Shown here in pieces: positions 1 to 14,308 of a stretch of 64,000 bases of DNA (position 1 is the first letter of the stretch; every line of letters starts with the position of its first letter). Under the pieces are notes generated by a model. The model was not told the DNA's origin. It ran no database searches and saw only the letters and a list, made by a program, of their open reading frames with translations. The stretch lies in the NCBI RefSeq assembly GCF_051903065.1, contig NZ_CP178438.1; one strand, written 5' to 3'. Source of the DNA: Escherichia coli. Its GTDB lineage: Bacteria > Pseudomonadota > Gammaproteobacteria > Enterobacterales > Enterobacteriaceae. Position numbers and translations under genes: made by a program.

Positions 1-454
1 GCTCCACCTGGGTGAAGCAGGGCCAGCCCAGCATTTCCGCCAGCAAAAATGGCGTTTGCCCATTCTGCCCTTCGCTGCTTTGGCAGCCGGTAATTATCAG
101 ATCCAGCGGATTCTGACGCTGCCATTCGGCAATATGGCGAGCGACAAATTCCGACGCAAAGCGCAGATCTGCCGCCGTCTCCAGCAATACAGCTTCCTCA
201 AACCCAAGAGCCATGAGATAGCGCAGCCAGTGTAACGCCCGTTCATCCCCCATGCTCAACGCGGTTAAAGACATCGGCGTACCGTTTTTTCTCTGCGCCA
301 ACAGTAGCGCGGCGGCAGCCTGTTCATCAGCACCGAGTAAACTTCGCAGTAGCGAAACATCCGGTCCGCTATTACCCTGAGCCGCCGCCTGCCACTCTTT
401 TTCCGCCAGCATTCCGGCATCCGGTTCGGCTTTAAACGCTAACAGAATGTTCAT
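1..454 (-). CDS. ygcR: Electron-transfer-flavoprotein beta-subunit-like protein, N-terminal part (3' end lies beyond the window start)
   Basis: Reverse-strand translation from the ATG at 454..452 gives MNILLAFKAEPDAGMLAEKEWQAAAQGNSGP..., typical of an ETF-beta fold; the frame stays open to the window edge; overlaps the ygcS stop. Confidence 0.7.
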   Translation of the reverse strand, partial: MNILLAFKAEPDAGMLAEKEWQAAAQGNSGPDVSLLRSLLGADEQAAAALLLAQRKNGTPMSLTALSMGDERALHWLRYLMALGFEEAVLLETAADLRFASEFVARHIAEWQRQNPLDLIITGCQSSEGQNGQTPFLLAEMLGWPCFTQVE

Positions 455-1769
455 TCGCACCTCCTACATTTCCCGCCGCCACCAGCGGGAGGGCTTTGGT
501 TTCTGGTGCCCATAGCCAGGTCACAACAAAACCAACCAACAACACTGCCGCCAGGAGCAATAAGGAGACTTGCATTCCCCACTGCGCCAGCACCCACGGC
601 AGCAGGCCAGTACTTACCGCCGCCCCCAACCGACTCATGGCGGTGGCAAAACCGACGCCCAGCGAGCGAATGTCAGTAGGAAAACTTTCCGCAGGCAAAA
701 TGCCCACCAGATTACTGACTGCCGAAATGGTGGTGCTGAAGAGAACAAAAAGCAGCAGCGTTAATGAACTGCCGGAAGGCAAACAGGCCATCACTACCAG
801 CGTTGCCGCCAGCAGCAAAAAACTTCCCAGCAAAAATTTGCGATGTGCCAGCAGGTGCGTCAGAACTAATCCCAGCAGCGCGCCCACAATTAACAATGCA
901 TTAAGCATCAGGCTGGCAGTCAGCGCATCTTCCAGACCAATAGTCTGGGCGATAGTTGGCAGCCAGGTATAAATCACAAACCATGGGATTACGAGGCAGA
1001 CAAAGAAGACGCTGTTAAACGCCGTGCGCCGCCAGTAACGCGAAGAGAACAAGGTTTTGATGTGTTTATGGGTCGCCGTTACCACTTCATCGCCCAGTAA
1101 AACATGGGGACCAAAATAGCGATGCACGATAGCGTGAGCTTCTGCAAAACGCCCCTGGCGCAGTAGCCAGCGTGGCGATTCTGGCGTTCCCCAGCGTAAT
1201 AACGTAATCAACAACGCGGGCAGAGCTGCCGATGCCAGCAGCCAGCGCCAGGCCTCCGGGCTTTCGCTAATAAAGTGATGTCCGGCAATACTTGCTAACA
1301 CATAGCCTACGGTCCACACCACGCTGAATGCGCCCAGCAAAACACCGCGATGGCGGCGCGGGGAAAATTCAGCCAGCAAGGTGTGACCTACTGAGTAATC
1401 GCCTCCCAGACCAATGCCGATCAAAATGCGCAGTCCAATAAGATGCTCTGGCGTGGTGGCAAAAAATTGCAGGAACGAAGCGAGCGTAATCAGCAAAAAG
1501 CTGAAGGTGAAGATTTTTTGCCGACCAATATGGTCGGAGATCCACCCAAGAACCAGGCTGCCAAGAAACAAACCAAGGAGCGCCGAGCCGCCGATCATTC
1601 CCGCCATAAACGGCGTCAGTTGCATGGCGGGCGTAAGTTGAATAATGGCGTAACCAATGACGCCGAGAACATAACCGTCGGTCAGGTGTGCGCCGAAAGT
1701 GAGCGCAGCAATTCGACAGTGAAAACGGTTAAGCGGTAAATCATCCATTCGCACCGGTGAAGTGTTCAT
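432..1769 (-). CDS. ygcS: MFS-family transporter
   Basis: ORF 432..1841; multi-helix hydrophobic protein with sugar-porter-like motifs; start placed at the internal MNTSPVRMDD (1769) rather than the upstream ORF-track start. Confidence 0.8.
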   Translation of the reverse strand: MNTSPVRMDDLPLNRFHCRIAALTFGAHLTDGYVLGVIGYAIIQLTPAMQLTPFMAGMIGGSALLGLFLGSLVLGWISDHIGRQKIFTFSFLLITLASFLQFFATTPEHLIGLRILIGIGLGGDYSVGHTLLAEFSPRRHRGVLLGAFSVVWTVGYVLASIAGHHFISESPEAWRWLLASAALPALLITLLRWGTPESPRWLLRQGRFAEAHAIVHRYFGPHVLLGDEVVTATHKHIKTLFSSRYWRRTAFNSVFFVCLVIPWFVIYTWLPTIAQTIGLEDALTASLMLNALLIVGALLGLVLTHLLAHRKFLLGSFLLLAATLVVMACLPSGSSLTLLLFVLFSTTISAVSNLVGILPAESFPTDIRSLGVGFATAMSRLGAAVSTGLLPWVLAQWGMQVSLLLLAAVLLVGFVVTWLWAPETKALPLVAAGNVGGANEHSVSV

Positions 1770-1862
1770 CTTTACCCCTTCATTGTCCGGTAATAAGAAC
1801 GGCTTCTCGCCTGAGAAGCCGAAAAGGCAACGCCCCATCATCGCGGAACGCTGCCTGACACA

Positions 1863-3317
1863 TTATTTTTCAATCGGATAGATAGTACCCGTATTCATAA
1901 TGCCGTTAGGATCGAATTGCTTTTTCAGCCCTTCCAGCAACGCCCACGCGCTGCCGTGTTCCAGCTTGCTCCAGTGAACGCGATGTTTACCAATGCCGTG
2001 GTGGTGCACCATCGAACCGCCGAGGCGAATGGTTTCTTCGCAGATGATTTTGTTGAGCGGATTGTGGTACTTGTCGATTTCCTCTTCCGGCTTACAGTCA
2101 ACAACGTTGTAGTCATAGACGAAGTACATGTTTGTGCCGTTCTGATAGCTATGAGAGGAGTGACCGCCCAGCATAGTGATGTCGTCGGCGTGCGGGAACT
2201 CGGTACGAATACGGTTAATAACGCTTTCGTAGATTTCGTGGATGCAGCTCCAGCAGCCGGACACTTCAGTGGTAAAGCCCATGTTGCCGGTTTTGAGGAT
2301 TTGCACACGTTCGGCAGCCACTTTATCCGGTCCCCAGTTCAGGTTGTTAAACCAGGTTTCGATCAGTTTGCTGTCCACGCGCTGGCACTGCGGGTAGCGG
2401 GCAACGATTTCCGCAATCCCTTCGCCCGTCGCCTTCGCAATGCGAGGGTTACCTTCAGCCATAAAGATCAGCACACATTTTCCGTCGGCAAAATGGGTGA
2501 AGTGTTGGGTGCCATCTTCAGCGTCATACAAACGAGCGATCGACGGACGATACCCTTCCACCATGATTTCACGCAGGATGTTGAAGCCGGTTTTCATGTC
2601 TTCCAGGATATAGCCGTAGAAGAGGTTGTTTTTCGGGGTGAATTTAAAGATTTTCACTGTTACTTCAGTGATATAGCACAATGCACCTTCGTTGCCGATG
2701 ATGATGTGACGAATGTCCGGGCCAGCCGCGCGGCGTGGCACGTTTTTAATACGTGTGACGGTGCCATCAGCCAATACGGCTTCCAGACCAACGACCATAT
2801 CTTCGATTGCGCCGTAGAGTGTGGAGAACTGCCCGATACTGCGGGTTGCTACCAGGCCGCCCATCTGCGCCAGCGGCTTTGACTGCGGAGAATGCCCAGT
2901 GGTGTAACCTTTTTCACGCAACGCGTTTTCCAGCACCTCCAGCGGAACGCCACATTGCGCCGTCGCCTGCATATTCTCAATATCAATATTAATGATTTGA
3001 TTCATGGCGGAACCGTCGAGCACCACCGAGTTTTCTACAACAGTTTCCAGCCCACCTTCGGTGGCGGAAGCACCGGTACGCGGCACACCGTTAATTTTGT
3101 GCGCATTCATAAAATTCAGCACACGGGAGACTTGTTCTGTGGAACCGAGTTTTACGACCGCAGCCGGAATCGGCAAAGTATAAATACCATGAATATCCGG
3201 AAATTTACGAAAACGGTCAATACTGTTCTTCTTTAATACTGTTTCATCGGTAATTACGCGATCTGCACCAACAATTTCCTTTAGCTGGTCGACAATCGCT
3301 GCGCGAGATAAAGACAT
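1863..3317 (-). CDS. ygcU: FAD-linked oxidoreductase (GlcD / alkyl-DHAP synthase-like)
   Basis: 484-aa ORF with an FAD-binding PCMH-type domain signature; same length and position as K-12 YgcU. Confidence 0.85.
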   Translation of the reverse strand: MSLSRAAIVDQLKEIVGADRVITDETVLKKNSIDRFRKFPDIHGIYTLPIPAAVVKLGSTEQVSRVLNFMNAHKINGVPRTGASATEGGLETVVENSVVLDGSAMNQIINIDIENMQATAQCGVPLEVLENALREKGYTTGHSPQSKPLAQMGGLVATRSIGQFSTLYGAIEDMVVGLEAVLADGTVTRIKNVPRRAAGPDIRHIIIGNEGALCYITEVTVKIFKFTPKNNLFYGYILEDMKTGFNILREIMVEGYRPSIARLYDAEDGTQHFTHFADGKCVLIFMAEGNPRIAKATGEGIAEIVARYPQCQRVDSKLIETWFNNLNWGPDKVAAERVQILKTGNMGFTTEVSGCWSCIHEIYESVINRIRTEFPHADDITMLGGHSSHSYQNGTNMYFVYDYNVVDCKPEEEIDKYHNPLNKIICEETIRLGGSMVHHHGIGKHRVHWSKLEHGSAWALLEGLKKQFDPNGIMNTGTIYPIEK

Positions 3318-3386
3318 AGTAATTCCTTCCTGATAATAAAAATGGAATAATCATTAATAAGAGAAAACAGAAACCACCGTTATGGG

Positions 3387-4172
3387 TTAGCGCACTAAAT
3401 AACCGCCATCAACCACTAATAAATGCCCGTTGACATAATTCGATGCCGGACTTGCGAGGAATACGGCTGCGCCCATTAAATCCTGAGTATCGCCCCAACG
3501 GTTTGCTGGAATATGATCAAGAACGCGCTGATTGGTTTCTGGATTACTGCGTGTCGCCAGCGTAATATCTGTTGCATAATAGCCAGGGGCGATACCATTT
3601 ACCTGAATATTATATTGACCTAGTTCATCACAATAAGCTTTGGTGAACCCGGCAAGAGCATGTTTAGTGGCAGAATATGCAGGTGACCATTGTCCACCTA
3701 AGTAAGAGAACAATGAACAGATATTAATGATTTTACCGCTTTTCTGCGGGATCATAATTTTTGCTGCTTCGTAGCTTAACTCAAATGCGGCGGTCAGGTT
3801 CACATCAATCATTGGATCCCAGTCGGCACGACCGAAGTCCAGCACCTTATTCAGCTTACAAATACCGGCATTGTTAACCAGAATATCGACGGTACCGAAA
3901 CGTTCGCAACAGGCGGCGATTATCTTCTGCGGCGCGCCTTCTGCGGTGATATCCACCTGCATGAAGTCCACCTCAACACCCTGTTTTTCAATCATTTCCT
4001 TTGTTTCGCCGTTATCTTTGACAAAACTTGGAATAAAGACATTTGCGCCTGCTTTGGCCAACGCCATGGCAAATGCCTGGCCTAAACCGCTATTCCCGCC
4101 GGTAACAATTGCGGTTTTACCTTTCAGGGAGAAAAAATCCATTGAGAACGCATTGAGAGATTCGATTGACAT
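3387..4172 (-). CDS. ygcW: Short-chain dehydrogenase/reductase (SDR) family oxidoreductase
   Basis: TGGNSGLG Rossmann motif and YxxxK catalytic motif (YSATK); start placed at MSIESLNAF (4172) instead of the longer ORF-track start. Confidence 0.85.
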   Translation of the reverse strand: MSIESLNAFSMDFFSLKGKTAIVTGGNSGLGQAFAMALAKAGANVFIPSFVKDNGETKEMIEKQGVEVDFMQVDITAEGAPQKIIAACCERFGTVDILVNNAGICKLNKVLDFGRADWDPMIDVNLTAAFELSYEAAKIMIPQKSGKIINICSLFSYLGGQWSPAYSATKHALAGFTKAYCDELGQYNIQVNGIAPGYYATDITLATRSNPETNQRVLDHIPANRWGDTQDLMGAAVFLASPASNYVNGHLLVVDGGYLVR

Positions 4173-4419
4173 AGTTAGCTCCAATTTCCGTAAGGCAAAA
4201 AAAAAGAAAGGTAACTTCCCCCGCAAGAGGGAAGTTACCTTTCTCATTATCTCTGGTAACTGGAGATAATTTTTAGCATAAGGGCATAACTGCTAATGTG
4301 ATCGTAATCACAGTGTAATATTCGTATTGTCAAATAATTTTAAAAAGCAGAAGCGTGATTACTCTCACACAACACCTCTGCTTTCCATGTTATTTATTAT
4401 TTCAATTACTAGAGACCTG

Positions 4420-4466
4420 AGAAAAGTAATCCACCTGAAAGGGCGGCTTACTTTTCTCTTTTTTTT
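4420..4466 (+). terminator. Terminator-like hairpin plus T-tract in the 5' leader of yqcE
   Basis: Inverted repeat gagaaaagtaa ... ttacttttctc followed by 9 T residues, ending about 25 bp before the yqcE ATG. Confidence 0.35.
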
Positions 4467-4490
4467 GTCTATTACAAATGGGAATACGAT

Positions 4491-5768
4491 ATGCAACACA
4501 ACTCATATCGCCGTTGGATAACCCTCGCGATAATTAGTTTTAGCGGCGGCGTTAGTTTCGACCTGGCTTATTTACGTTATATTTATCAAATTCCCATGGC
4601 GAAATTTATGGGATTCAGCAATACCGAGATAGGTTTAATAATGAGTACCTTTGGTATTGCAGCTATTATTCTTTATGCCCCCAGCGGCGTTATTGCTGAT
4701 AAATTCTCACATCGCAAAATGATTACTTCCGCGATGATCATTACCGGATTACTGGGTCTGTTAATGGCAACGTATCCACCGCTGTGGGTAATGCTCTGTA
4801 TTCAGGTCGCCTTTGCGATAACGACGATTTTAATGCTGTGGTCGGTGTCGATTAAAGCCGCATCGTTGCTTGGCGATCATAGCGAGCAAGGGAAAATTAT
4901 GGGCTGGATGGAAGGGCTGCGCGGCGTCGGTGTAATGTCGCTGGCGGTGTTTACCATGTGGGTCTTTTCTCGCTTTGCACCGGATGACAGCGCTAGCCTG
5001 AAAACGGTCATAATTATCTACAGTGTGGTTTACATCTTGTTGGGGATTCTGTGCTGGTTTTTTGTTAGCGATAACAACAACCTGTGCAGTGCCAATAACG
5101 AAGAAAAACAGTCATTCCAGCTTAGCGACATCCTGGCCGTTTTGCGCATCAGCACCACCTGGTATTGCAGCATGGTGATTTTTGGCGTCTTCACCATCTA
5201 CGCCATTCTGAGTTACTCCACCAACTATCTGACCGAAATGTATGGCATGTCGCTGGTGGCGGCGAGCTACATGGGGATTGTGATCAACAAAATCTTCCGC
5301 GCGCTGTGCGGCCCACTTGGCGGCATTATCACCACCTACAGTAAAGTGAAATCCCCTACCCGCGTGATCCAAATCCTTTCCGTACTCGGCCTGCTGGCGT
5401 TAACTGCCCTGCTCGTCACGAACTCTAACCCGCAATCGGTCGCGATGGGGATTGGCCTGATTTTACTGCTGGGATTCACCTGTTACGCCTCACGCGGGCT
5501 GTACTGGGCCTGCCCTGGCGAAGCGAGAACACCGTCTTACATTATGGGCACCACGGTAGGTATTTGTTCGGTGATTGGATTCCTGCCGGATGTCTTCGTT
5601 TACCCGATTATCGGCCACTGGCAGGACACCCTGCCCGCAGCAGAAGCCTACCGCAACATGTGGCTGATGGGCATGGCGGCGCTTGCCATGGTGATTGTCT
5701 TTACCTTTTTGCTGTTCCAAAAAATTCGTACTGCTGATATCGCCCCCACAACGGCTAACAGCAAGTAA
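4491..5768 (+). CDS. yqcE: MFS-family transporter
   Basis: 425-aa polytopic membrane protein; position and size match yqcE. Confidence 0.85.
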   Translation: MQHNSYRRWITLAIISFSGGVSFDLAYLRYIYQIPMAKFMGFSNTEIGLIMSTFGIAAIILYAPSGVIADKFSHRKMITSAMIITGLLGLLMATYPPLWVMLCIQVAFAITTILMLWSVSIKAASLLGDHSEQGKIMGWMEGLRGVGVMSLAVFTMWVFSRFAPDDSASLKTVIIIYSVVYILLGILCWFFVSDNNNLCSANNEEKQSFQLSDILAVLRISTTWYCSMVIFGVFTIYAILSYSTNYLTEMYGMSLVAASYMGIVINKIFRALCGPLGGIITTYSKVKSPTRVIQILSVLGLLALTALLVTNSNPQSVAMGIGLILLLGFTCYASRGLYWACPGEARTPSYIMGTTVGICSVIGFLPDVFVYPIIGHWQDTLPAAEAYRNMWLMGMAALAMVIVFTFLLFQKIRTADIAPTTANSK

Positions 5769-5794
5769 GCCAGAAAAATTACAGGAGAAAAATC

Positions 5795-7273
5795 ATGTCG
5801 AAGAAATACATCATAGGGATTGATGGCGGAAGTCAGAGCACAAAAGTGGTGATGTACGATCTGGAAGGTAACGTGGTTTGCGAAGGCAAAGGTTTATTGC
5901 AGCCGATGCACACGCCAGATGCCGATACCGCAGAACATCCTGACGACGATTTATGGGCATCATTATGTTTTGCCGGTCACGATTTGATGAGTCAGTTTGC
6001 CGGGAATAAAGAAGATATTGTCGGTATTGGTCTGGGATCCATCCGTTGCTGCCGTGCGTTATTGAAAGCCGATGGCACGCCAGCTGCGCCATTGATTAGC
6101 TGGCAGGATGCACGCGTAACGCGTCCCTACGAACACACTAATCCTGACGTGGCATATGTCACCTCTTTTTCGGGTTATCTAACGCATCGCTTAACCGGCG
6201 AGTTTAAAGACAATATCGCCAACTATTTTGGTCAGTGGCCAGTGGATTATAAGAGCTGGGCATGGAGCGAAGATGCTGCGGTAATGGAGAAGTTTAATAT
6301 CCCTCGTCATATGCTGTTTGATGTGCAAATGCCTGGCACCGTCCTCGGACATATCACACCACAAGCCGCACTGGCGACACATTTCCCGGCAGGGCTGCCG
6401 GTTGTTTGTACCACCAGTGATAAACCGGTAGAAGCTCTGGGAGCCGGATTACTGGATGATGAAACGGCGGTGATTTCTCTTGGCACCTACATCGCGCTGA
6501 TGATGAACGGTAAAGCACTGCCGAAAGATCCGGTGGCGTACTGGCCGATTATGTCTTCTATACCGGAAACATTGCTGTATGAAGGGTACGGTATCCGTAA
6601 AGGCATGTGGACGGTGAGCTGGCTACGCGACATGTTAGGCGAGTCGTTAATTCAGGATGCCAAAGCACAGGATCTTTCACCGGAAGATTTGCTCAACAAA
6701 AAAGCTTCTTGTGTGCCGCCTGGCTGTAATGGTCTGATGACGGTGCTGGACTGGCTGACCAACCCGTGGGAACCCTACAAACGTGGGATTATGATCGGCT
6801 TTGATTCCAGCATGGATTACACATGGATATATCGTTCGATACTGGAAAGCGTGGCGCTGACGCTGAAGAACAATTACGACAATATGTGTAATGAAATGAA
6901 TCACTTTGCAAAGCATGTGATCATTACTGGCGGCGGTTCGAACAGCGATCTATTTATGCAAATTTTTGCCGACGTGTTCAACCTTCCGGCACGCCGTAAC
7001 GCCATTAACGGTTGTGCAAGTCTGGGGGCAGCGATCAATACGGCGGTAGGTCTGGGGCTATACCCGGATTACGCAACGGCTGTCGACAAAATGGTTCGCG
7101 TGAAAGATATCTTTATGCCTGTTGAGAGCAATGCCAAACGCTACGACGCGATGAATAAAGGTATTTTCAAAGCCCTAACCAAACATACTGATGTGATCCT
7201 GAAAAAATCGTATGAAGTGATGCATGGGGAATTGGGGAATGCGGATTCGATCCAGAGCTGGTCGAATGCGTAA
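5795..7273 (+). CDS. ygcE: FGGY-family carbohydrate kinase
   Basis: 492 aa; N-terminal IGIDGGSQSTK actin-fold ATPase motif; RBS aggag upstream. Confidence 0.85.
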   Translation: MSKKYIIGIDGGSQSTKVVMYDLEGNVVCEGKGLLQPMHTPDADTAEHPDDDLWASLCFAGHDLMSQFAGNKEDIVGIGLGSIRCCRALLKADGTPAAPLISWQDARVTRPYEHTNPDVAYVTSFSGYLTHRLTGEFKDNIANYFGQWPVDYKSWAWSEDAAVMEKFNIPRHMLFDVQMPGTVLGHITPQAALATHFPAGLPVVCTTSDKPVEALGAGLLDDETAVISLGTYIALMMNGKALPKDPVAYWPIMSSIPETLLYEGYGIRKGMWTVSWLRDMLGESLIQDAKAQDLSPEDLLNKKASCVPPGCNGLMTVLDWLTNPWEPYKRGIMIGFDSSMDYTWIYRSILESVALTLKNNYDNMCNEMNHFAKHVIITGGGSNSDLFMQIFADVFNLPARRNAINGCASLGAAINTAVGLGLYPDYATAVDKMVRVKDIFMPVESNAKRYDAMNKGIFKALTKHTDVILKKSYEVMHGELGNADSIQSWSNA

Positions 7274-7319
7274 GTGAGGAAGACCGGGCGGGAAACTGCC
7301 CGGCCTGAACATACCTGAA

Positions 7320-7457
7320 TGGTTATCCCCGCTGGCGCGGGGAACATAAGTTCGACAACTTAAAAAATGATAACAAGTCCGGTTTATCCCCGCTGATGCA
7401 GGGAACATAATAAAAACTTTAACTAGTTCGGTTTATCCCTGTTTTTACAAGGAATAT
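7320..7457 (-). CRISPR. Degenerate CRISPR mini-array (3 type I-E-like repeats, 2 spacers)
   Basis: Repeats tggttatccccgctggcgcggggaacat (7320-7347), cggtttatccccgctgatgcagggaacat (7380-7408), cggtttatccctgtttttacaaggaatat (7429-7457); one 32-bp spacer and one 20-bp spacer; same orientation as the main array. Confidence 0.75.
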
Positions 7458-7519
7458 TAACTACACTCGATGTCTTTAGAATAAAAGACAATACGAATCG
7501 CACTTTATCAATTTTCACT

Positions 7520-8576
7520 GGCTTTGTTGAATAAATCGAACTTTTGCTGAGTTGAAGGATCAGATCACGTATCTTCCCGACAACGCAGACCGTTCCGTGG
7601 CAAAGCAAAAGTTCAAAATCACCAACTGGCCCACCTACAATAAAGCCCTCATCAACCGTGGCTCCATAACTTTCTGGCTGGATGATGAAGCTATTCAGGC
7701 CTGGTATGAGTCAGCAACACCTTCTTCACGAGGCAGACCTCAGCGCTATTCTGACCTTGCCATCACGACTGTGCTGGTCATTAAACGCGTATTCAGGCTG
7801 ACCCTGCGCGCTGCGCAGGGCTTTATTGATTCCATTTTTTCTCTGATGAACGTTCCGCTACGCTGCCCGGATTACAGCTGTGTCAGCAGGCGGGCAAAGT
7901 CGGTTAATGTCAGTTTCAAAACGCCCACCCGGGGTGAAATCGCACACCTGGTAATTGATTCCACCGGGCTGAAGGTCTTCGGTGAAGGCGAGTGGAAAGT
8001 CAAAAAGCATGGCCAGGAACGCCGCCGTATCTGGCGTAAGCTGCATCTCGCCGTTGACAGTAAAACACATGAAATCATCTGCGCTGACCTGTCGCTGAAC
8101 AACGTTACGGACTCAGAGGCCTTCCCCGGGTTAATCCGGCAAACCCACCGGAAAATCAGGTCAGCCGCCGCCGATGGCGCTTACGATACCCGGCTATGTC
8201 ACGATGAACTGCGGCGTAAGAAAATCAGCGCGCTTATCCCTCCCCGAAAAGGTGCGGGTTACTGGCCCGGTGAATATGCAGACCGTAACCGTGCAGTGGC
8301 TAATCAGCGAATGACCGGGAGTAATGCGCGGTGGAAATGGACAACAGATTACAACCGTCGCTCGATAGCGGAAACGGCGATGTACCGGGTAAAACAGCTG
8401 TTCGGGGGTTCACTGACACTGCGTGACTACGATGGTCAGGTTGCAGAGGCTATGGCCCTGGTACGAGCGCTGAACAAAATGACGAAAGCAGGTATGCCTG
8501 AAAGCGTGCGTATTGCCTGAAAACACAACCCGCTACGGGGGAGACTTACCCGAAATCTGATTTATTCAACAAAGCC
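7520..8576 (+). mobile_element. IS903-family (IS5 superfamily) insertion sequence, 1057 bp
   Basis: Perfect 18-bp terminal inverted repeats (ggctttgttgaataaatc at 7520; reverse complement ending at 8576); flanked by a 9-bp direct repeat attttcact at 7511-7519 and 8577-8585 (target-site duplication). Confidence 0.92.
7597..8520 (+). CDS. IS903-type DDE transposase
   Basis: Protein ...AKQKFKITNWPTYNKALINRGSITFWLDDEAIQAWYESATPSSRGRPQRYSDLAITTVLVIKR... matches the IS903/IS102 transposase as I recall it; probable GTG start at 7597 (the ORF-track start at 7552 is a TTG extension). Confidence 0.88.
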   Translation: MAKQKFKITNWPTYNKALINRGSITFWLDDEAIQAWYESATPSSRGRPQRYSDLAITTVLVIKRVFRLTLRAAQGFIDSIFSLMNVPLRCPDYSCVSRRAKSVNVSFKTPTRGEIAHLVIDSTGLKVFGEGEWKVKKHGQERRRIWRKLHLAVDSKTHEIICADLSLNNVTDSEAFPGLIRQTHRKIRSAAADGAYDTRLCHDELRRKKISALIPPRKGAGYWPGEYADRNRAVANQRMTGSNARWKWTTDYNRRSIAETAMYRVKQLFGGSLTLRDYDGQVAEAMALVRALNKMTKAGMPESVRIA

Positions 8577-8976
8577 ATTTTCACTTAAAGTATGAACAGG
8601 ATATCTTTATTCATAAGAACTATTCATCAACAGCGTATAGAGGCGGTTATGTAAAACCACTCATTAGCCTCAAAACAAAGACAAATTTCCAGATTTATTA
8701 CTTAATCAATGAATAACAAGCTTAAAAAATACACTGTTATTCTAAAGAAAAAATTAACAGGCATTAATTAATATTAAAAAAATAATATATTAAAATTTCT
8801 TAACGGTTTAAGGATTATACAAATAACACTTTGATTAAATTTGATTTTTTGTATCGATAATTGTGAACTTATCTGGCATGGGGAACTATTTTGAACATGA
8901 GGTGTTACGTGGATATGTTGCTTATTACAAGTACAGCTAATATAAAAACTTGAGAAAGAGATAACGGGTTATATGG

Positions 8977-9554
8977 TGGTTTATCCCCGCTGGCGCGGGG
9001 AACTCGTACTGACGGATAAAAATAATACCTTTTGCGGCGGTTTATCCCCGCTGGCGCGGGGAACTCGTCAACGTTTTTCATGTGGGCATGAGTTGGGGCG
9101 GTTTATCCCCGCTGGCGCGGGGAACTCTATTCGGCCTCGTGCTGGTCGTGACAAAATACCGGTTTATCCCCGCTAGCGCGGGGAACTCTGGCGATATTGC
9201 CTACCGCAACAAAGAAAATACGGTTTATCCCCGCTAGCGCGGGGAACTCATCCACGAATCCAGTGCAAATGAGTTTGTTGGCGGTTTATCCCCGCTAGCG
9301 CGGGGAACTCATTGTGACTACCACCGATAACCCCGCAACCACCGGTTTATCCCCGCTAGCGCGGGGAACTCCTGCATTCGCCTGCGGTTATCAGATCGCT
9401 AAACGGTTTATCCCCGCTAGCGCGGGGAACTCGCTGCCATTACTTCCCGCCAGCGTTGCTCTGGCGGTTTATCCCCGCTAGCGCGGGGAACTCGCAGAGA
9501 ATCGTTCGATTGCCCCTACATCTTCCGGTTTATCCCCGCTGGCGCGGGGAACTC
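8977..9554 (-). CRISPR. CRISPR array, type I-E (E. coli-type) repeats, 10 repeats / 9 spacers
   Basis: 29-bp repeat cggtttatccccgctggcgcggggaactc (reverse complement of GAGTTCCCCGCGCCAGCGGGGATAAACCG) with an exact 61-bp period; nine 32-bp spacers at 9006, 9067, 9128, 9189, 9250, 9311, 9372, 9433, 9494; the first repeat has t instead of c at its first base. Confidence 0.97.
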
Positions 9555-9760
9555 TCTAAACATAACCTATTATTAATTAATGATTTTTTAAGCCAGTCAC
9601 AATCTACCAACTTTACAGTATCACACAAACAACACATCCATTATGTTAAAGAGCGCTTAATCCATTGATTAAAAAGGTAAATATTTAAAATAACTCTATA
9701 CAAACTAAAATCTACCAAACTTTACCGCAATAATTTTCACTCCAACGAAAAATTAACGCC
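9555..9760 (-). promoter_or_regulatory. CRISPR leader (AT-rich, contains the array promoter and integration signals)
   Basis: The sequence abutting repeat 10 (reverse complement ...ATAATAGGTTATGTTTAGA) matches the conserved E. coli leader-repeat junction as I recall it; AT-rich tract; the far boundary is approximate. Confidence 0.7.
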
Positions 9761-9892
9761 ACAGAATTTGTAGAGAATGATAATGATTAGTCCAGGATGG
9801 GCAAAATGGAGGTTTTTCAGAGGCGACAAAGAATATAAATGAGTAGAAGTCTTTACAGGTTCCACCCATTTATAACGCTTATAAAAGTTTAA

Positions 9893-10564
9893 TCAGGCAA
9901 TATTTAGATATTTATGTGTTTGCATCGACAAACGCCAATTACGCGCAATGCAGATTTCAATGCACAATCGTGTGGCATCATCCTTTTGGCTAATCGGCTG
10001 CAGTGCAATGACTCGCGGTTTATCATCGGTCAGCGTTGCCAATAGTTCATCCAGTGCTTCAATATCGCGTACGCGCCCCACTGGATGCTTGATTTCGTTG
10101 GCTCGCTCCAGTGCCTGTGACAACACTTCATAGCCGCCGCGCATGTTCAGCTTTGGCGATACGGTAACCCAGGTATTCGGTGTGCAGCGTACCTCATGAG
10201 TACCACTGGTTTCGATCTGGCAGCTAAAACCGTTCTTTTCGAGCAGATCAGTCAGTGGTAGCAAATCATGAATGCAAGGCTCACCACCCGTAATCACCAC
10301 ATGCCGCGCGGTGTATCCCTGGCGACTAATGACAGCCAACAAGTCTTCACTGCTCGCCGCCCCCCACTTATCACTCTCTTTGGTCTTCGCCAGAATGCTG
10401 AAAAGGGAGACTTCCCGATCCTCAAGCTTTTCCCAGGTGTGTTTGGTGTCGCACCAGGCACAGCCAACCGGGCATCCCTGTAAACGAATAAAAATGGCGG
10501 GGACGCCGGTAAAGTAACCCTCACCTTGCAGGGTCTGGAACATCTCGTTAATCGGGTACTGCAT
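9893..10564 (-). CDS. queE: 7-carboxy-7-deazaguanine synthase (radical SAM)
   Basis: 223 aa, MQYPINEMFQTLQGEGYFTGVPAIFIRLQGCPVGCAWCDTKHTW with the CxxxCxxC radical-SAM cluster motif. Confidence 0.9.
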   Translation of the reverse strand: MQYPINEMFQTLQGEGYFTGVPAIFIRLQGCPVGCAWCDTKHTWEKLEDREVSLFSILAKTKESDKWGAASSEDLLAVISRQGYTARHVVITGGEPCIHDLLPLTDLLEKNGFSCQIETSGTHEVRCTPNTWVTVSPKLNMRGGYEVLSQALERANEIKHPVGRVRDIEALDELLATLTDDKPRVIALQPISQKDDATRLCIEICIARNWRLSMQTHKYLNIA

Positions 10565-10736
10565 AGCATTCTCTGTGAAGTGGATAATTGTTAATTATTG
10601 CAGATCCTGCCACAACAATCATGTCTTATTAACATTCTGTTACAGGCAGGCTTATGGCAAAAAGTGGATTAGATCATAAAGAATAAAATGAAGCAGTGTA
10701 TTATGTTTTAAGGAATTAATTAAAAGGGATTTAAAC

Positions 10737-11339
10737 ATGCTCAGAATATGCATCGTAATTATATTTATTTTCAATTTATCAGGCTGTGGATATAACGATA
10801 TTCAAACCTATGATGAGCAGGTTAACGCCTCCTGGTCTGAGGTATTAAATCAATATCAACGTCGCGCCGATCTTATTCCTAATCTTGTCGCCAGTATTAA
10901 AGGTTATTCCAACCATGAAAAAGACGTTTTGGAAGCCGTAACATTGGCTCGTAGCCAGGCTAATCGCGCCAGCAGCGATCTTCAGCAAGCTCCCGGAGAT
11001 GCACAAAAATTACAAGCCTGGCAACAGGCCCAGGCGCAGGTGACTCGCACTCTCGGTCAGTTAACGATAATTAGTGAGCGTTACCCTGAGTTAAAGGCTC
11101 AAGAGCTCTATCAAAACTTAATGGTACAGCTCGAAGGAAGTGAAAATAGAATTGCCGTTGCGCGAGGAAGATATATTAAAGCCATTGAACAATATAATGT
11201 CACTATCCGCAAATTCCCCGCTGTATTAACCGCAAAGGTCATGGATTACACACCAAAGAAAAATTATTTGCCGGATGATGTCACCGCAGTAAGTAAAGCC
11301 CCAACAATAGATTTTAGCCAGAATGCTAATGCTCATTAA
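10737..11339 (+). CDS. LemA-family lipoprotein
   Basis: 200 aa; N-terminal lipobox (LSGC); LemA-type core (...QRRADLIPNLVASIKGYSNHEKDVLEAVTLAR...); RBS aaaaggga upstream; AT-rich codon usage. Confidence 0.85.
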   Translation: MLRICIVIIFIFNLSGCGYNDIQTYDEQVNASWSEVLNQYQRRADLIPNLVASIKGYSNHEKDVLEAVTLARSQANRASSDLQQAPGDAQKLQAWQQAQAQVTRTLGQLTIISERYPELKAQELYQNLMVQLEGSENRIAVARGRYIKAIEQYNVTIRKFPAVLTAKVMDYTPKKNYLPDDVTAVSKAPTIDFSQNANAH

Positions 11340-11352
11340 GCGGGGAACTTCT

Positions 11353-12246
11353 ATGCGAAATTTTATCTTCCTTATGGCTTTCTTCTGTTCATCTGTGTTT
11401 GCCACACAAATTCCAGTACCTGAATCCCCCAAGTATGTGAATGACTTAACCGGCACATTAACAAACAGCGAAGTAAACACCCTGACCAACCAGATTAAAG
11501 CCCTGACGCAAAAAAACCACGCACAGTTGGTCGTGTTAGTGGTTGATACAACAGGCGATGAAACCATCGAGCAGTACGCAACGCGGGTATTCGATAGCTG
11601 GAAACCGGGTGATAAAGACCGCGATGATGGCGTTCTACTGTTAGTCGCCTGGCAGGATCATACCGTGCGTATTGAAATCGGTTACGGGCTGGAAGGTATT
11701 ATTACGGATGCACAGTCCGGGAAAATTATTCGCAACAGTATTATTCCTGCATTTAAAAAAGGCGACCTGGCTGGCGGTTTACAAAAGGGGATCAGCGATA
11801 TTGAAAGTCGTCTTACGGGGAATAATTTAGCAACGATAACACCGACCGATCACCCTTTGCCCTTTAGCGGTTGGTGGGCATTGTTAGTCTGGGCGATAGT
11901 ACTGACATTTATTTCTGCCAGAGGATATATCAAAACGCTGGGAGTAATTTGCTTCGCAGCTATTGTACTGGCCTTTGTTTTACCTATAGCAGGCTTCAGC
12001 GGAAGCTGGGGAGTACTCGCAACATTACTCTGCTTCGCCACACCGTTCCTGGCTGTCGCCATCGCTTTTACCCCCTTCGGCAAAAAAGTTCGGGATTTGA
12101 TGCGTGATGTCAACCAGCCATCACGCCATACAAGAAGCAATTCTTCCTCCCACTATTCATCATCGTCATCCTCTTCATTCAACAATGACAATTTCAGCGG
12201 TGGTGGCGGTTCATCTGGTGGCGGTGGCGCTTCCGGGCGCTGGTAA
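11353..12246 (+). CDS. TPM-domain (YgcG-like) membrane protein, paralog 1
   Basis: Signal peptide MRNFIFLMAFFCSSVFA, TPM/phosphatase-like domain (...VLVVDTTGDETIEQYATRVFDSWKPGDKDRDDGVLLLVAW...), C-terminal TM helices, Gly/Ser-rich tail ending SGRW. Confidence 0.85.
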   Translation: MRNFIFLMAFFCSSVFATQIPVPESPKYVNDLTGTLTNSEVNTLTNQIKALTQKNHAQLVVLVVDTTGDETIEQYATRVFDSWKPGDKDRDDGVLLLVAWQDHTVRIEIGYGLEGIITDAQSGKIIRNSIIPAFKKGDLAGGLQKGISDIESRLTGNNLATITPTDHPLPFSGWWALLVWAIVLTFISARGYIKTLGVICFAAIVLAFVLPIAGFSGSWGVLATLLCFATPFLAVAIAFTPFGKKVRDLMRDVNQPSRHTRSNSSSHYSSSSSSSFNNDNFSGGGGSSGGGGASGRW

Positions 12247-12260
12247 CAAAAGGAATTGAT

Positions 12261-13409
12261 ATGCGTATTTTTCTCTTACTTCTGATGCTATGCAGTTTTC
12301 AGGTATTCGCTGAACGATTGCCTTCAGTGAATGACTTAACCGGGACATTAACGACAGAAGAACAAAGTGTTTTAAATCAACAATTAAAGACTCTCGAGCA
12401 GCAAAACCACTTCCAGGTGGCCGTGTTAGTTACGCCAACCACAGGGGGCAAAAACATTAAACTTGCAGCCTCGCAGAGCTACGGGTTATATCACTGGAAA
12501 CCCATTGGAGAGAAGCGATACGGCGAAGGTATCTTAATTCTCGTCGTTTGGCCGGAAGGGCTGGCGTCAATGAAGATTGGACATGGACTGGAAGAGATGT
12601 TGCCGCCGGAACAAGCTGCGCAAATTGTTCGTTACCATATGCAGCCAGAATTCGAAAAAAACAATCTCTTTGCTGGATTAACGGGCGGAATTGAAAGCAT
12701 CGCACAGTTTACCCATATCAAAGCGAACCTTAGCCCTTTGGATGCTTTAGCCAATCATCTGTTTGCTAATCCGCAACGTTCGCTGCCATGTCTTGCCTGG
12801 ACACTGCTGATGATCGTTGCCATCGTTGTCCTCTGGCGATTTGCCAGCCGCCCACGGCGTGGCATATGGATGATATCGATGATTACCCCTATGGTCTGGT
12901 TTTTCTCCTTTCAGGACGATGTCATCATTCGGCGGGTATCGGTCGTTTGTTTTAGTTTATTGTTAGCAACAACCTGCAAGCAGCGTCTCGCGGTAGTTTT
13001 TAATATGTGCCGCGTATTTCCTATGATGCTGACCCCAAAAAATAAAAACTCTAAAGTGAAAAAACAAAAGAAGACTCCGCAGGTTCGTGAATCAGGACGA
13101 AATTCATTGTTTGTCGTGATGCTAATAATTATTGTGGGATGGTGCCTGGTGTTCGCCAGTAATAAAAATATTGCATTCATCTCAACAATTATTGGGTTAA
13201 TTGATCATTTTATCGGCCCAATAACCATTGCTGGCATCGTTCTGCTGATCATTGTGGCCAAATTTACTGGCAATCTTAAGCTGGGGTCAGGAGAAAAAAG
13301 CAACAGGAAAACGGGGAATCGTAATGCTCACTCTCGCTCTTCGTCGAGAAATTCTTTCCGCGGTGGTGGCGGTTCTTCAGGAGGCGGCGGTTCATCCGGC
13401 CGTTGGTGA
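12261..13409 (+). CDS. TPM-domain (YgcG-like) membrane protein, divergent paralog 2 with extended membrane region
   Basis: Signal peptide MRIFLLLLMLCSFQVFA, TPM domain, extra hydrophobic and Lys-rich segments, tail ...GGGGSSGGGGSSGRW. Confidence 0.8.
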   Translation: MRIFLLLLMLCSFQVFAERLPSVNDLTGTLTTEEQSVLNQQLKTLEQQNHFQVAVLVTPTTGGKNIKLAASQSYGLYHWKPIGEKRYGEGILILVVWPEGLASMKIGHGLEEMLPPEQAAQIVRYHMQPEFEKNNLFAGLTGGIESIAQFTHIKANLSPLDALANHLFANPQRSLPCLAWTLLMIVAIVVLWRFASRPRRGIWMISMITPMVWFFSFQDDVIIRRVSVVCFSLLLATTCKQRLAVVFNMCRVFPMMLTPKNKNSKVKKQKKTPQVRESGRNSLFVVMLIIIVGWCLVFASNKNIAFISTIIGLIDHFIGPITIAGIVLLIIVAKFTGNLKLGSGEKSNRKTGNRNAHSRSSSRNSFRGGGGSSGGGGSSGRW

Positions 13410-13414
13410 TCGTA

Positions 13415-14308
13415 ATGCGCTTAATCTTTATTCTATTCACTTTGTGGTGCCTTCCTGGGCTTGCCCAGCAAATTGCTGTGCCGGAACTGCGCCAACAGGT
13501 GACCGATATTACTGGTACGTTAAGCACTTCTGAACAACAATCACTGACACAGCAACTGCAGGATATTACACATAAAACACGGGCGCAGGTCGCTGTATTA
13601 GTAGTGCCGTCCACCGGAGACGATTCCATTGAACAATATGCAACACGCGTTTTTGATAGCTGGAAACTGGGAGATAAGCAGAGAAACGATGGTATTTTAC
13701 TTCTGGTTGCCTGGGAGGATCATGCTGTTCGTATTGAGGTTGGCTACGGGCTGGAAGGGATGGTTACCGACCTGCAAGCGGCGAAAATTATCAGGGATAT
13801 ATTGATCCCTGCCTTCAAAAGTGATGACCTGATGGGTGGATTAACACTGGCAAGCGAAAATATCGGCGCGCTTCTGTTGAATGGTGAATTATCGGAAGAC
13901 AAGGGGGATTATTACAGTATCAATCCCCCTATTCCATTATCGCTTGCTGTAATTATATTGCTGGCGGTACTTTCATATTTTATTGTTTTTACCGATCCGT
14001 CGAATTTACCCTGGATCACTCTCACTGGCGCCATTTACGGGATGGTATTCCTCTATGTTGCCGAGCCAGGACCATGGACCAATTTAATCGTTGCCTGCGG
14101 TATGTTAACACCTTTTGCGATCGTGACGCTGGTTATTTTTTGGCTTATCGTTAATAAAAAGCTACGCGCCAAATACAAAAAACTCAGTAAAGAAAGAGCT
14201 TCAAGAAAAGGTTCTTCTTCATCCTCTTCCGGTGGAGGCTCAAGTGGCGGCGGATTTAGCGGCGGGGGCGGTTCTTCTGGCGGTGGCGGCGCGTCCGGTC
14301 GCTGGTAA
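13415..14308 (+). CDS. TPM-domain (YgcG-like) membrane protein, paralog 3 (likely the counterpart of K-12 ygcG)
   Basis: Signal peptide, TPM domain closely similar to paralog 1 (...SIEQYATRVFDSWKLGDKQRNDGILLLVAWEDHAVRIEVGYGLEG...), tail ...GGGGSSGGGGASGRW; start could also be 13403, overlapping the upstream stop. Confidence 0.85.
   Translation: MRLIFILFTLWCLPGLAQQIAVPELRQQVTDITGTLSTSEQQSLTQQLQDITHKTRAQVAVLVVPSTGDDSIEQYATRVFDSWKLGDKQRNDGILLLVAWEDHAVRIEVGYGLEGMVTDLQAAKIIRDILIPAFKSDDLMGGLTLASENIGALLLNGELSEDKGDYYSINPPIPLSLAVIILLAVLSYFIVFTDPSNLPWITLTGAIYGMVFLYVAEPGPWTNLIVACGMLTPFAIVTLVIFWLIVNKKLRAKYKKLSKERASRKGSSSSSSGGGSSGGGFSGGGGSSGGGGASGRW

What the first reader, a model, noticed from the sequence alone, without database searches (positions are those of the whole stretch)
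9160..9493. Block structure of repeat variants inside the main CRISPR array
Repeats 4 to 9 carry gctAgcg in the hairpin loop, whereas the leader-proximal repeat 10 and the leader-distal repeats 1 to 3 carry gctGgcg. New repeats are copied from the leader-proximal repeat during adaptation, so a variant block sandwiched between canonical repeats implies either a transient leader-proximal variant that later reverted, or recombination between arrays.
Basis: partly seen in the sequence, partly recalled or inferred. Interest (0 to 1): 0.35.

Follow-up and report, generated by a model that had tools for sequence, protein, structure and literature searches.

The report
Variant-repeat block in E. coli CRISPR array
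Six neighbouring repeats of an ordinary E. coli type I-E CRISPR array share a harmless one-base change that was copied along as new spacers were added, and the unchanged repeat at the growing end most likely marks a past DNA exchange with another strain; the pattern is real but already described.

Summary
The array at 8977-9554 has 10 repeats. Repeats 4-9 (9160-9493) carry A at + strand repeat position 16; repeats 1-3 and 10 carry G. This is the E. coli type I-E CRISPR2.3 array between ygcE and queE, transcribed on the minus strand, with its leader on the right. The change is C14>U in the crRNA tetraloop (GCCA>GCUA) and leaves the predicted hairpin unchanged.

Three complete genomes carry the same G-capped A block, so it is not a sequencing error. 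Three related arrays share the oldest spacers and the same block start, but their A block runs up to the leader. That is the expected result when a mutated leader-proximal repeat is copied at each acquisition.

Only the window's sub-lineage has the G cap. Only that sub-lineage also has a different flank haplotype from leader position +101. An almost identical 740-bp island around the array sits inside flanks that are 2% diverged. I therefore favour a recombination junction in the leader-proximal repeat (about 0.6) over a back-mutation (about 0.25).

The pattern is published as "Pattern 2", found in 18% of arrays with trackable repeat mutations. Interest is low.

The parts
8977..9554 (-). E. 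coli type I-E CRISPR2.3 array: 10 repeats of 29 nt and 9 spacers of 32 nt. It is transcribed right to left in window coordinates.
   Evidence: The homologous position is annotated as CRISPR between ygcE and queE in E. coli genomes.
9160..9493 (-). Block of six repeats (numbers 4-9) carrying the variant. This is + strand position 16 G>A, equal to sense position 14 C>T, which turns the GCCA tetraloop into GCUA. The block also holds spacers 4-8 between these repeats.
   Evidence: The exact variant repeat occurs in only 45 of 5426 complete E. coli genomes.
9526..9554 (-). Leader-proximal repeat 10 with the canonical sequence (G at 9541), referred to here as the cap. It is the proposed recombination junction.
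   Evidence: Related arrays have A here. The same G repeat with the same leader bases 1-146 is found in the unrelated strain 88-3493.
8977..9127 (-). Leader-distal canonical repeats 1-3 with the two oldest spacers. Repeat 1 is the degenerate terminal repeat, starting with T on the + strand.
   Evidence: Spacers 1-3 are shared with strain 48, PapRG-06-5 and the metagenome contig L027.
9494..9525 (-). Newest spacer, spacer 9 (GCAGAGAATCG... on the + strand). It has an A repeat on its distal side and the G repeat on its leader side.
   Evidence: It occurs only in the window's own sub-lineage among 5426 genomes and was not found in metagenome contigs.
9555..9654 (-). The first 100 bp of the leader. 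They are identical in the window and in strain 48, PapRG-06-5, ET350 and TUM13936, and nearly invariant in the rest of the sample, so they give no information on the junction.
   Evidence: Almendros 2014 (PMC3903273) also reports that the CRISPR2.3 leader is similar in all strains.
9655..10654 (.). The rest of the leader and the 5' part of queE, where the window lineage switches haplotype. The first differences are at 9655 (+101) and 9661 (+107). Divergence from strain 48 here is 2.1%.
7199..7519 (.). Left edge of the near-identical island shared with strain 48, ET350 and PapRG-06-5. There is one difference in 7201-7519 against 2.03% divergence in 1-7200. This stretch contains the CRISPR2.2 remnant.
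7319..7408 (-). CRISPR2.2 remnant: two degenerate repeats (7319-7347 and 7380-7408) with one spacer.
   Evidence: The CRISPR-II locus layout is described in PMC3903273.

Best explanation
The array is the ordinary E. coli type I-E CRISPR2.3 array. The proposed history has three steps.

1. While spacer 3 was the newest spacer, the leader-proximal repeat acquired a C>T change at sense position 14, in the hairpin loop. The change is neutral for the predicted fold.

2. Each Cas1-Cas2 integration duplicates the leader-proximal repeat, so every later acquisition (spacers 4 to 9, plus spacers since lost) laid down another copy of the variant. This produced a contiguous block that reached the leader. 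Sister arrays still show that state.

3. Later, on the branch leading to the window, homologous recombination with a different E. coli background exchanged the DNA on the leader side. One crossover fell inside the leader-proximal repeat or its heteroduplex, between 9481 and 9541. The result was a canonical G at 9541 joined to a foreign leader/queE haplotype from 9655 onward. No spacer has been acquired since, because the repeat on the distal side of spacer 9 is still A.

Shown directly: the block, its inheritance, the uncapped relatives and the mosaic flanks. Inferred: that the cap and the flank switch are one event.
For: Block and locus identity: for the block; for the locus.

The closest relative, 23CRST027, has a complete type I-E operon (cas3, casABCDE, cas1e, cas2e).

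The hairpin energy is -15.1 kcal/mol for both repeat alleles.

Sister arrays:
- Strain 48 has spacers 1,2,3 | A: 4,22,5,23,24,6,66-70.
- PapRG-06-5 has 1,3 | A: 4,21,22,5,23-27.
- Metagenome contig L027 has 1,3 | A: 4,21,22,5,23,110,111.
All three have A at the leader-proximal repeat. The order of acquisitions gives the tree (((window, strain 48), PapRG-06-5), L027).

All three uncapped arrays carry the flank haplotype A101/C107/G191/T238/A269 and so on. Only the capped sub-lineage carries G101/T107/A191/C238/G269. By parsimony, both the cap and the flank switch are derived on the same branch.

Window against strain 48:
- 0 differences in 8577-8976 and in 9555-9654.
- 1 difference in 7201-7519.
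- 2.03% divergence in 1-7200 and 2.10% in 9655-10654.
- The longest difference-free run has a permutation p of about 5e-6.
- The max-chi-square breakpoint falls after +100, with p=0.03.

Canonical first repeats linked to the G101/T107 leader exist in the population, for example 88-3493 and ATCC 8739.

Other arrays at this locus show allele switches that a single mutation cannot make. In C21, ET761 and ATCC 8739, a block with 26G gives way to a block with 28A, which needs two changes at once.
Against: - No donor with the window's full flank haplotype is in the collection. The best non-family match is 99.2% over 596 bp.
- The first 100 bp of the leader are uninformative. The junction can only be placed between 9481 and 9655, and the model needs it in the leftmost 61 bp, with homology limited to parts of a repeat.
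- The argument rests on one evolutionary event.
- The single-breakpoint tests are only modestly significant: p=0.03, 0.03 and 0.09.
- The region is mosaic in every strain compared. A flank switch near the array could therefore be coincidental.
Confidence: 0.6

Rival explanations
1. Back-mutation. After spacer 9 was acquired, the leader-proximal repeat reverted T>C (sense strand) by an independent point mutation. The nearby flank switch is then an unrelated recombination whose junction lies in 9542-9654.
For: It needs only one transition at one site. The site looks mutable, because the A allele appears in at least five array families with unrelated spacers and as single copies. The junction cannot be placed more finely than 9481-9655. 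Ou and McInerney list reversal as one reading of Pattern 2.
Against: It needs two independent events on one short branch within 114 bp. Divergence inside the shared island is about 1 difference in roughly 820 bp. By my rough estimate, a specific change at one specific site is therefore far less likely than a crossover falling in 15-61 bp of a roughly 175-bp interval.
Confidence: 0.25
2. Ectopic (non-leader) integration. The G first repeat and spacer 9 are old, and the A-block spacers were inserted at an internal variant repeat behind them.
For: Internal insertion is one of the published explanations for Pattern 2. Spacers 10 and 11 are present inside the block in ECNB21-M121 only, which could be read as internal insertion.
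Against: The three sister arrays lack spacer 9 and have A repeats up to the leader. Spacer 9 is confined to the youngest sub-lineage. The shared spacers follow a strictly polar order.
Confidence: 0.05
3. Gene conversion within the genome. The first repeat was corrected using another repeat of the same cell, either from CRISPR2.1 or from repeats 2-3 of the same array.
For: Canonical G at position 16 is present in repeats 2-3 and in all CRISPR2.1 repeats of the relative.
Against: All CRISPR2.1 repeats of 23CRST027 carry 28A. A tract covering position 16 would have to stop before position 28, and repeat 10 has no 28A. Exchange with repeats 2-3 would usually delete the intervening spacers. This reading also leaves the flank switch unexplained.
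Confidence: 0.07
4. Artefact. The A/G pattern comes from assembly or sequencing error in a repetitive region.
For: None, beyond the general difficulty of assembling repeats.
Against: The identical pattern is present in three independent complete assemblies from Ecuador and China. The same block start is seen in three further sequences.
Confidence: 0.01

Closest known systems
E. coli type I-E CRISPR-II locus, CRISPR2.3 array (ygcE-ygcF/queE), as described by Diez-Villasenor 2010 and Almendros 2014 (PMC3903273)
   Same: Same chromosomal position, 29-nt repeat, 32-nt spacers and conserved leader. A CRISPR2.2 remnant lies about 0.5 kb away once the IS is discounted. The type I-E cas operon lies about 17 kb away in the closest relative.
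   Different: Nothing structural. This array carries a rare loop allele of the repeat (45 of 5426 genomes) and an IS5-family insertion between CRISPR2.2 and CRISPR2.3.
'Pattern 2' repeat-mutation maps of Ou and McInerney 2022 (bioRxiv 10.1101/2022.05.19.492656)
   Same: A repeat mutation persists through at least two duplications and then returns to the original base towards the leader. This was reported in 219 of 1095 arrays (18.1%) and explained by reversal, internal insertion or recombination.
   Different: Here the sister arrays and flank SNPs allow the alternatives to be weighed for one case. The return to the original base is confined to the single leader-proximal repeat.
Leader-linked repeat variants at the CRISPR-I locus (Almendros 2014, PMC3903273)
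   Same: Leader-proximal repeats of a type specific to one leader variant were taken as evidence that a leader-cas module was inserted by recombination inside the array.
   Different: That case concerns CRISPR2.1 and exchange of whole cas-leader modules. Here the locus is CRISPR2.3, which that paper described as comparatively clonal, and the exchanged part is leader/queE-side DNA.

Membership tests
Type I-E CRISPR array (E. coli CRISPR2 repeat type) | 29-nt partially palindromic repeat GAGTTCCCCGCGCCAGCGGGGATAAACCG with about 32-nt spacers (61-nt period) | tested here: met
   Ten copies with at most 1 mismatch at an exact 61-nt period, where 0 are expected by chance. The repeat folds into a 7-bp stem with a tetraloop.
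Type I-E CRISPR array (E. coli CRISPR2 repeat type) | Type I-E cas genes, including cas1e and cas2e, in the same genome | tested here: inconclusive
   The cas genes are outside the 64-kb window. The closest relative, 23CRST027, has flanks 100% identical to the window's and a complete cas3-casABCDE-cas1e-cas2e operon next to CRISPR2.1.
Type I-E CRISPR array (E. coli CRISPR2 repeat type) | Spacers derived from mobile DNA next to an AAG/ATG-type PAM | tested here: met
   Spacer 2 matches Escherichia phage vB_EcoM-705R4 at 32 of 32 bases, with ATG on the sense strand. The other spacers had no match in the phage or plasmid collections.
E. coli CRISPR2.3 array (CRISPR-II locus) | Located between ygcE and ygcF/queE, with the leader on the queE side and CRISPR2.2 upstream | tested here: met
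   with the locus description in PMC3903273.
Polar, leader-end repeat duplication (Pattern 1, then Pattern 2) | Variant repeats are contiguous, and shared spacers are leader-distal while lineage-specific spacers are leader-proximal | tested here: met
   All blocks are contiguous and the spacer order is colinear among six related arrays.
Polar, leader-end repeat duplication (Pattern 1, then Pattern 2) | The new repeat is templated by the leader-proximal repeat | not testable with these tools
   This is established knowledge for E. coli type I-E (Yosef 2012 and Nunez 2015 from memory; also stated). The comparative pattern here is consistent with it, but no assay was done.
Recombinant (mosaic) CRISPR locus | Abrupt change of nearest relative or divergence at a breakpoint next to or within the array | tested here: met
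   Divergence is 0-0.3% inside 7201-9654 and 2.0-2.1% outside. The difference-free run has p of about 5e-6, and the breakpoint falls after +100 with p=0.03.
Recombinant (mosaic) CRISPR locus | Junction located inside the leader-proximal repeat | tested here: inconclusive
   There is no informative site between 9541 and 9655. The placement is inferred from the cap and the flank switch arising on the same branch.

The most novel reading that the evidence does not exclude
The allele of the leader-proximal repeat may be exchanged routinely between E. coli strains together with the leader-side flank, by homologous recombination that ends in the first repeat. This would be a main source of 'reverting' repeat blocks (Pattern 2) and of the radical array turnovers reported for E. 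coli. The same process could have moved the rare loop allele into at least five unrelated spacer sets; the alternative is that tetraloop C14 is a recurrent C>T hotspot. If so, repeat alleles combined with flank SNPs would serve as a general marker for dating and mapping array transfers.
Probability: 0.3. Interest if true: 0.35.

Novelty: already known. Interest (0 to 1): 0.15.

Why it matters
The finding matters little beyond bookkeeping. It is a clean, well-resolved example of two known facts. First, repeat point mutations record the order of spacer acquisition. Second, CRISPR arrays in E. coli move between genetic backgrounds by homologous recombination.

It also shows natural, fairly recent spacer uptake at CRISPR2.3 in several lineages, each with 2 to 5 lineage-specific spacers, in a species whose type I-E system is usually regarded as silent.

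For strain typing, the practical point is that the leader-proximal repeat allele and the flank SNPs should be read together before spacer order is interpreted as history.

Tried and rejected
- The first search with the whole array plus flanks did not rank the true relatives first. They were found through the flank instead.
- Rfam at gathering threshold over 7200-9800 gave no family.
- A plasmid search with all spacers gave no match. The phage search matched only spacer 2.
- A metagenome scan for spacer 9 gave 0 hits, so the predicted intermediate (A first repeat next to spacer 9) was not found.
- The search for a donor of the window-type flank failed. The best non-family match was 99.2% over 596 bp (TR01). 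Strains 88-3493 and F9792 share only leader bases 1-146 and diverge after +170.
- CRISPR2.1 was rejected as an internal donor because all its repeats carry 28A.
- Sequencing error was rejected.
- I considered whether the loop change affects folding. It does not in prediction. Cas6e processing was not testable.
- I checked the variant site by eye against the Dcm motif (CCWGG). The sequence is CCAGC, so it is not a Dcm site.

Full report
**Observation**

The window holds ten 29-nt repeats at an exact 61-nt period from 8977 to 9554. Repeats 4-9 (9160-9493) read CGGTTTATCCCCGCTAGCGCGGGGAACTC. Repeats 2, 3 and 10 have G instead of A at repeat position 16, and repeat 1 also starts with T. The finding's coordinates and description are exact.

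On the transcribed (minus) strand the change is C14>U, the third base of the GCCA tetraloop. Both alleles fold into the same 7-bp hairpin at -15.1 kcal/mol.

**What the locus is**

Flank searches place the array between ygcE (5795-7273) and queE (9893-10564, minus strand) of Escherichia coli. This is the CRISPR2.3 array of the CRISPR-II locus (layout in PMC3903273).

A two-repeat CRISPR2.2 remnant lies at 7319-7408.

The type I-E cas operon is outside the window. It is complete in the closest relative, 23CRST027, whose CRISPR2.1 repeats all carry a different allele, 28A.

The leader is on the right. Spacers shared between strains are on the left and strain-specific ones on the right. The degenerate repeat is on the left, and the first 100 bp after 9554 are identical to the window's in strain 48, PapRG-06-5, ET350 and TUM13936 and nearly invariant in the rest.

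**Relatives with the same array**

The right flank is 100% identical to 23CRST027 and 23CRST031 and 99.9% identical to ECNB21-M121.

- 23CRST027 has the window's array minus spacer 2. Search statistics indicate the same for 23CRST031, which was not fetched.
- ECNB21-M121 has the window's array plus two internal spacers.
- In all of them the A block is contiguous and the leader-proximal repeat is G.

This excludes sequencing error and shows that the pattern is inherited.

**Population frequency**

The exact A-variant repeat occurs in only 45 of 5426 complete genomes, 154 copies in all. I fetched arrays from 19 of those genomes, plus the single metagenome contig that carries the variant.

Spacers are numbered as, with 1 the oldest and 9 the newest in the window. 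The related arrays are:

| Source | Spacers before the A block | Spacers inside the A block |
|---|---|---|
| Strain 48 | 1, 2, 3 | 4, 22, 5, 23, 24, 6, 66-70 |
| PapRG-06-5 | 1, 3 | 4, 21, 22, 5, 23-27 |
| Metagenome contig L027 | 1, 3 | 4, 21, 22, 5, 23, 110, 111 |

These three share the window's oldest spacers and the same block start, between spacers 3 and 4. Their A block runs up to and includes the leader-proximal repeat.

Four other array families with unrelated spacers also have A blocks that reach the leader: Combat11I9; LH50-c, O78 strain 3, NCTC10444, NCTC9112 and KV7; ET350; and TUM13936. One further family has a single internal A.

The G cap is unique to the window's sub-lineage.

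**How the block arose**

The comparative pattern matches the established mode of type I-E adaptation, in which each integration duplicates the leader-proximal repeat. This is stated; Yosef 2012 and Nunez 2015 are cited from my own knowledge.

A mutation in the first repeat, made when spacer 3 was the newest, was copied at every later acquisition. The order of shared and private spacers gives the tree (((window lineage, strain 48), PapRG-06-5), L027). Each lineage has 2-5 private spacers at the leader end, and internal spacers have been lost here and there.

**How the G cap arose**

Spacer 9 has an A repeat on its distal side. It was therefore acquired while the first repeat was still A, and the G replaced A afterwards. 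No acquisition has followed.

The flank SNPs bear on the mechanism.

| Window coordinates | Window versus strain 48 |
|---|---|
| 1-7200 | 2.03% divergence |
| 7201-7519 | 1 difference |
| 8577-8976 | 0 differences |
| 9555-9654 | 0 differences |
| 9655-10654 | 2.10% divergence |
| Further right | 0.5-0.9% divergence |

- A difference-free run of this length has a permutation probability of about 5e-6.
- A max-chi-square test places the right breakpoint after leader position +100, with p=0.03 for strain 48 and ET350 and p=0.09 for PapRG-06-5.
- All three uncapped relatives carry A101/C107/G191/T238/A269 and so on. The capped sub-lineage alone carries G101/T107/A191/C238/G269.

By parsimony on the array tree, the flank switch and the cap are both derived on the same branch. 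They lie at most 114 bp apart with no informative site between them.

Canonical first repeats joined to a G101/T107 leader exist in other strains, such as 88-3493 and ATCC 8739. One recombination event with its junction, or the end of its heteroduplex, in the first repeat (9481-9541) explains both observations. The alternative needs a recombination plus an independent, exact back-mutation.

My weights are about 0.6 for recombination and 0.25 for reversion. The remainder goes to gene conversion within the genome (disfavoured because CRISPR2.1 repeats carry 28A), internal insertion (disfavoured by the uncapped sister arrays and by spacer 9 being confined to the youngest lineage) and artefact (excluded).

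**Limits**

- This is a single event.
- No exact donor is in the collection.
- The leader's first 100 bp carry no SNPs.
- The whole region is mosaic in every strain examined, so coincidence cannot be ruled out.

**Generality and prior knowledge**

Other repeat alleles at this locus also form blocks.

- C21 and ET761 read G, 26G x2, then 28A up to the leader.
- ATCC 8739 reads 26G x2, 28A x3, then G.

The 26G-to-28A switch needs two simultaneous changes, which again points to exchange rather than mutation.

The phenomenon is published. Ou and McInerney (bioRxiv 10.1101/2022.05.19.492656) classify repeat-mutation maps. Their Pattern 2, in which a mutation persists through at least two duplications and then returns to the original base, occurs in 219 of 1095 arrays. 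They list reversal, internal insertion and recombination as explanations.

Almendros et al. 2014 used leader-specific repeat variants to infer recombination inside the CRISPR2.1 array. Kupczok et al. 2015 discuss recombination in E. coli arrays from spacer order alone.

**Verdict**

The comparison it asked for supports a propagated leader-proximal variant followed, most likely, by a recombination junction at the first repeat. This is a known kind of pattern in a well-known array, so novelty and interest are low.

Noticed in passing
window 7520-8576 (target-site duplications at 7511-7519 and 8577-8585): A 1057-bp IS5-family (IS903-like) element with a 9-bp target duplication (ATTTTCACT) and terminal inverted repeats (GGCTTTGTTGAATAAATC...). 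It is inserted between the CRISPR2.2 remnant and the CRISPR2.3 array. It is absent from the otherwise identical relatives 23CRST027 and ECNB21-M121.
   Followed up: yes
window 7319-7408: CRISPR2.2 remnant: two degenerate repeats and one spacer (AAGTTCGACAACTT...). It is present in all 8 related loci scanned with the looser 5-mismatch pattern and in 23CRST027.
   Followed up: partly
window 9067-9098 (spacer 2): This spacer matches the ImmA/IrrE metallopeptidase gene of Escherichia phage vB_EcoM-705R4 at 32 of 32 bases, with an ATG PAM. The search with all eleven spacers also matched 619 further E. coli genomes; the 55 of those listed all match spacer 2 in the same gene, many of them ST131 strains. 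None of the other spacers matched the phage or plasmid collections.
   Followed up: partly
window array versus L001 and L002: Internal spacers differ among near-identical strains. ECNB21-M121 has two extra spacers inside the A block (GCATCACG... and ATCGCTGATC...). 23CRST027 lacks spacer 2. Repeat-to-repeat deletion is the simplest reading, but internal insertion is not excluded.
   Followed up: no
L017-L019 (C21, ET761, ATCC 8739), homologous array: Other repeat alleles also form blocks (26G x2, then 28A). In ATCC 8739 the 28A block is followed by canonical repeats. That array also has a duplicated spacer pair and an IS421 element splitting it.
   Followed up: partly
L003, L005/L007/L021-L023, L008, L009: The rare A allele heads arrays with four further, mutually unrelated spacer sets. 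Either loop C14 is a recurrent C>T hotspot, or the first-repeat allele spreads by recombination together with the leader. This was not resolved.
   Followed up: no
L006, L011, L012, L024, L025: One array family has a single A-variant repeat as its second repeat, followed by canonical repeats. Its leader-proximal repeat differs at three positions (1A, 17A, 20T).
   Followed up: no
window 10737-14308 and homologous loci: Gene content to the right of queE is polymorphic. The window and several other loci have a LemA plus three TPM-domain gene set. C21, ATCC 8739, 88-3493 and others have yqcG/ygcG instead.
   Followed up: no
window 1-7200 and 9655-10654 versus strain 48 (L030): The segments immediately flanking the array island are about 2% diverged from strain 48, which is two to four times the 0.5-0.9% seen over the next 40 kb. 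This suggests repeated recombination around the CRISPR-II locus.
   Followed up: partly
several arrays, + strand repeat position 1: Single repeats carry T, A or G instead of C at the spacer-adjacent base (1T, 1A, 1G), and these variants are not propagated. This fits the known donation of that base by the PAM in type I-E.
   Followed up: no
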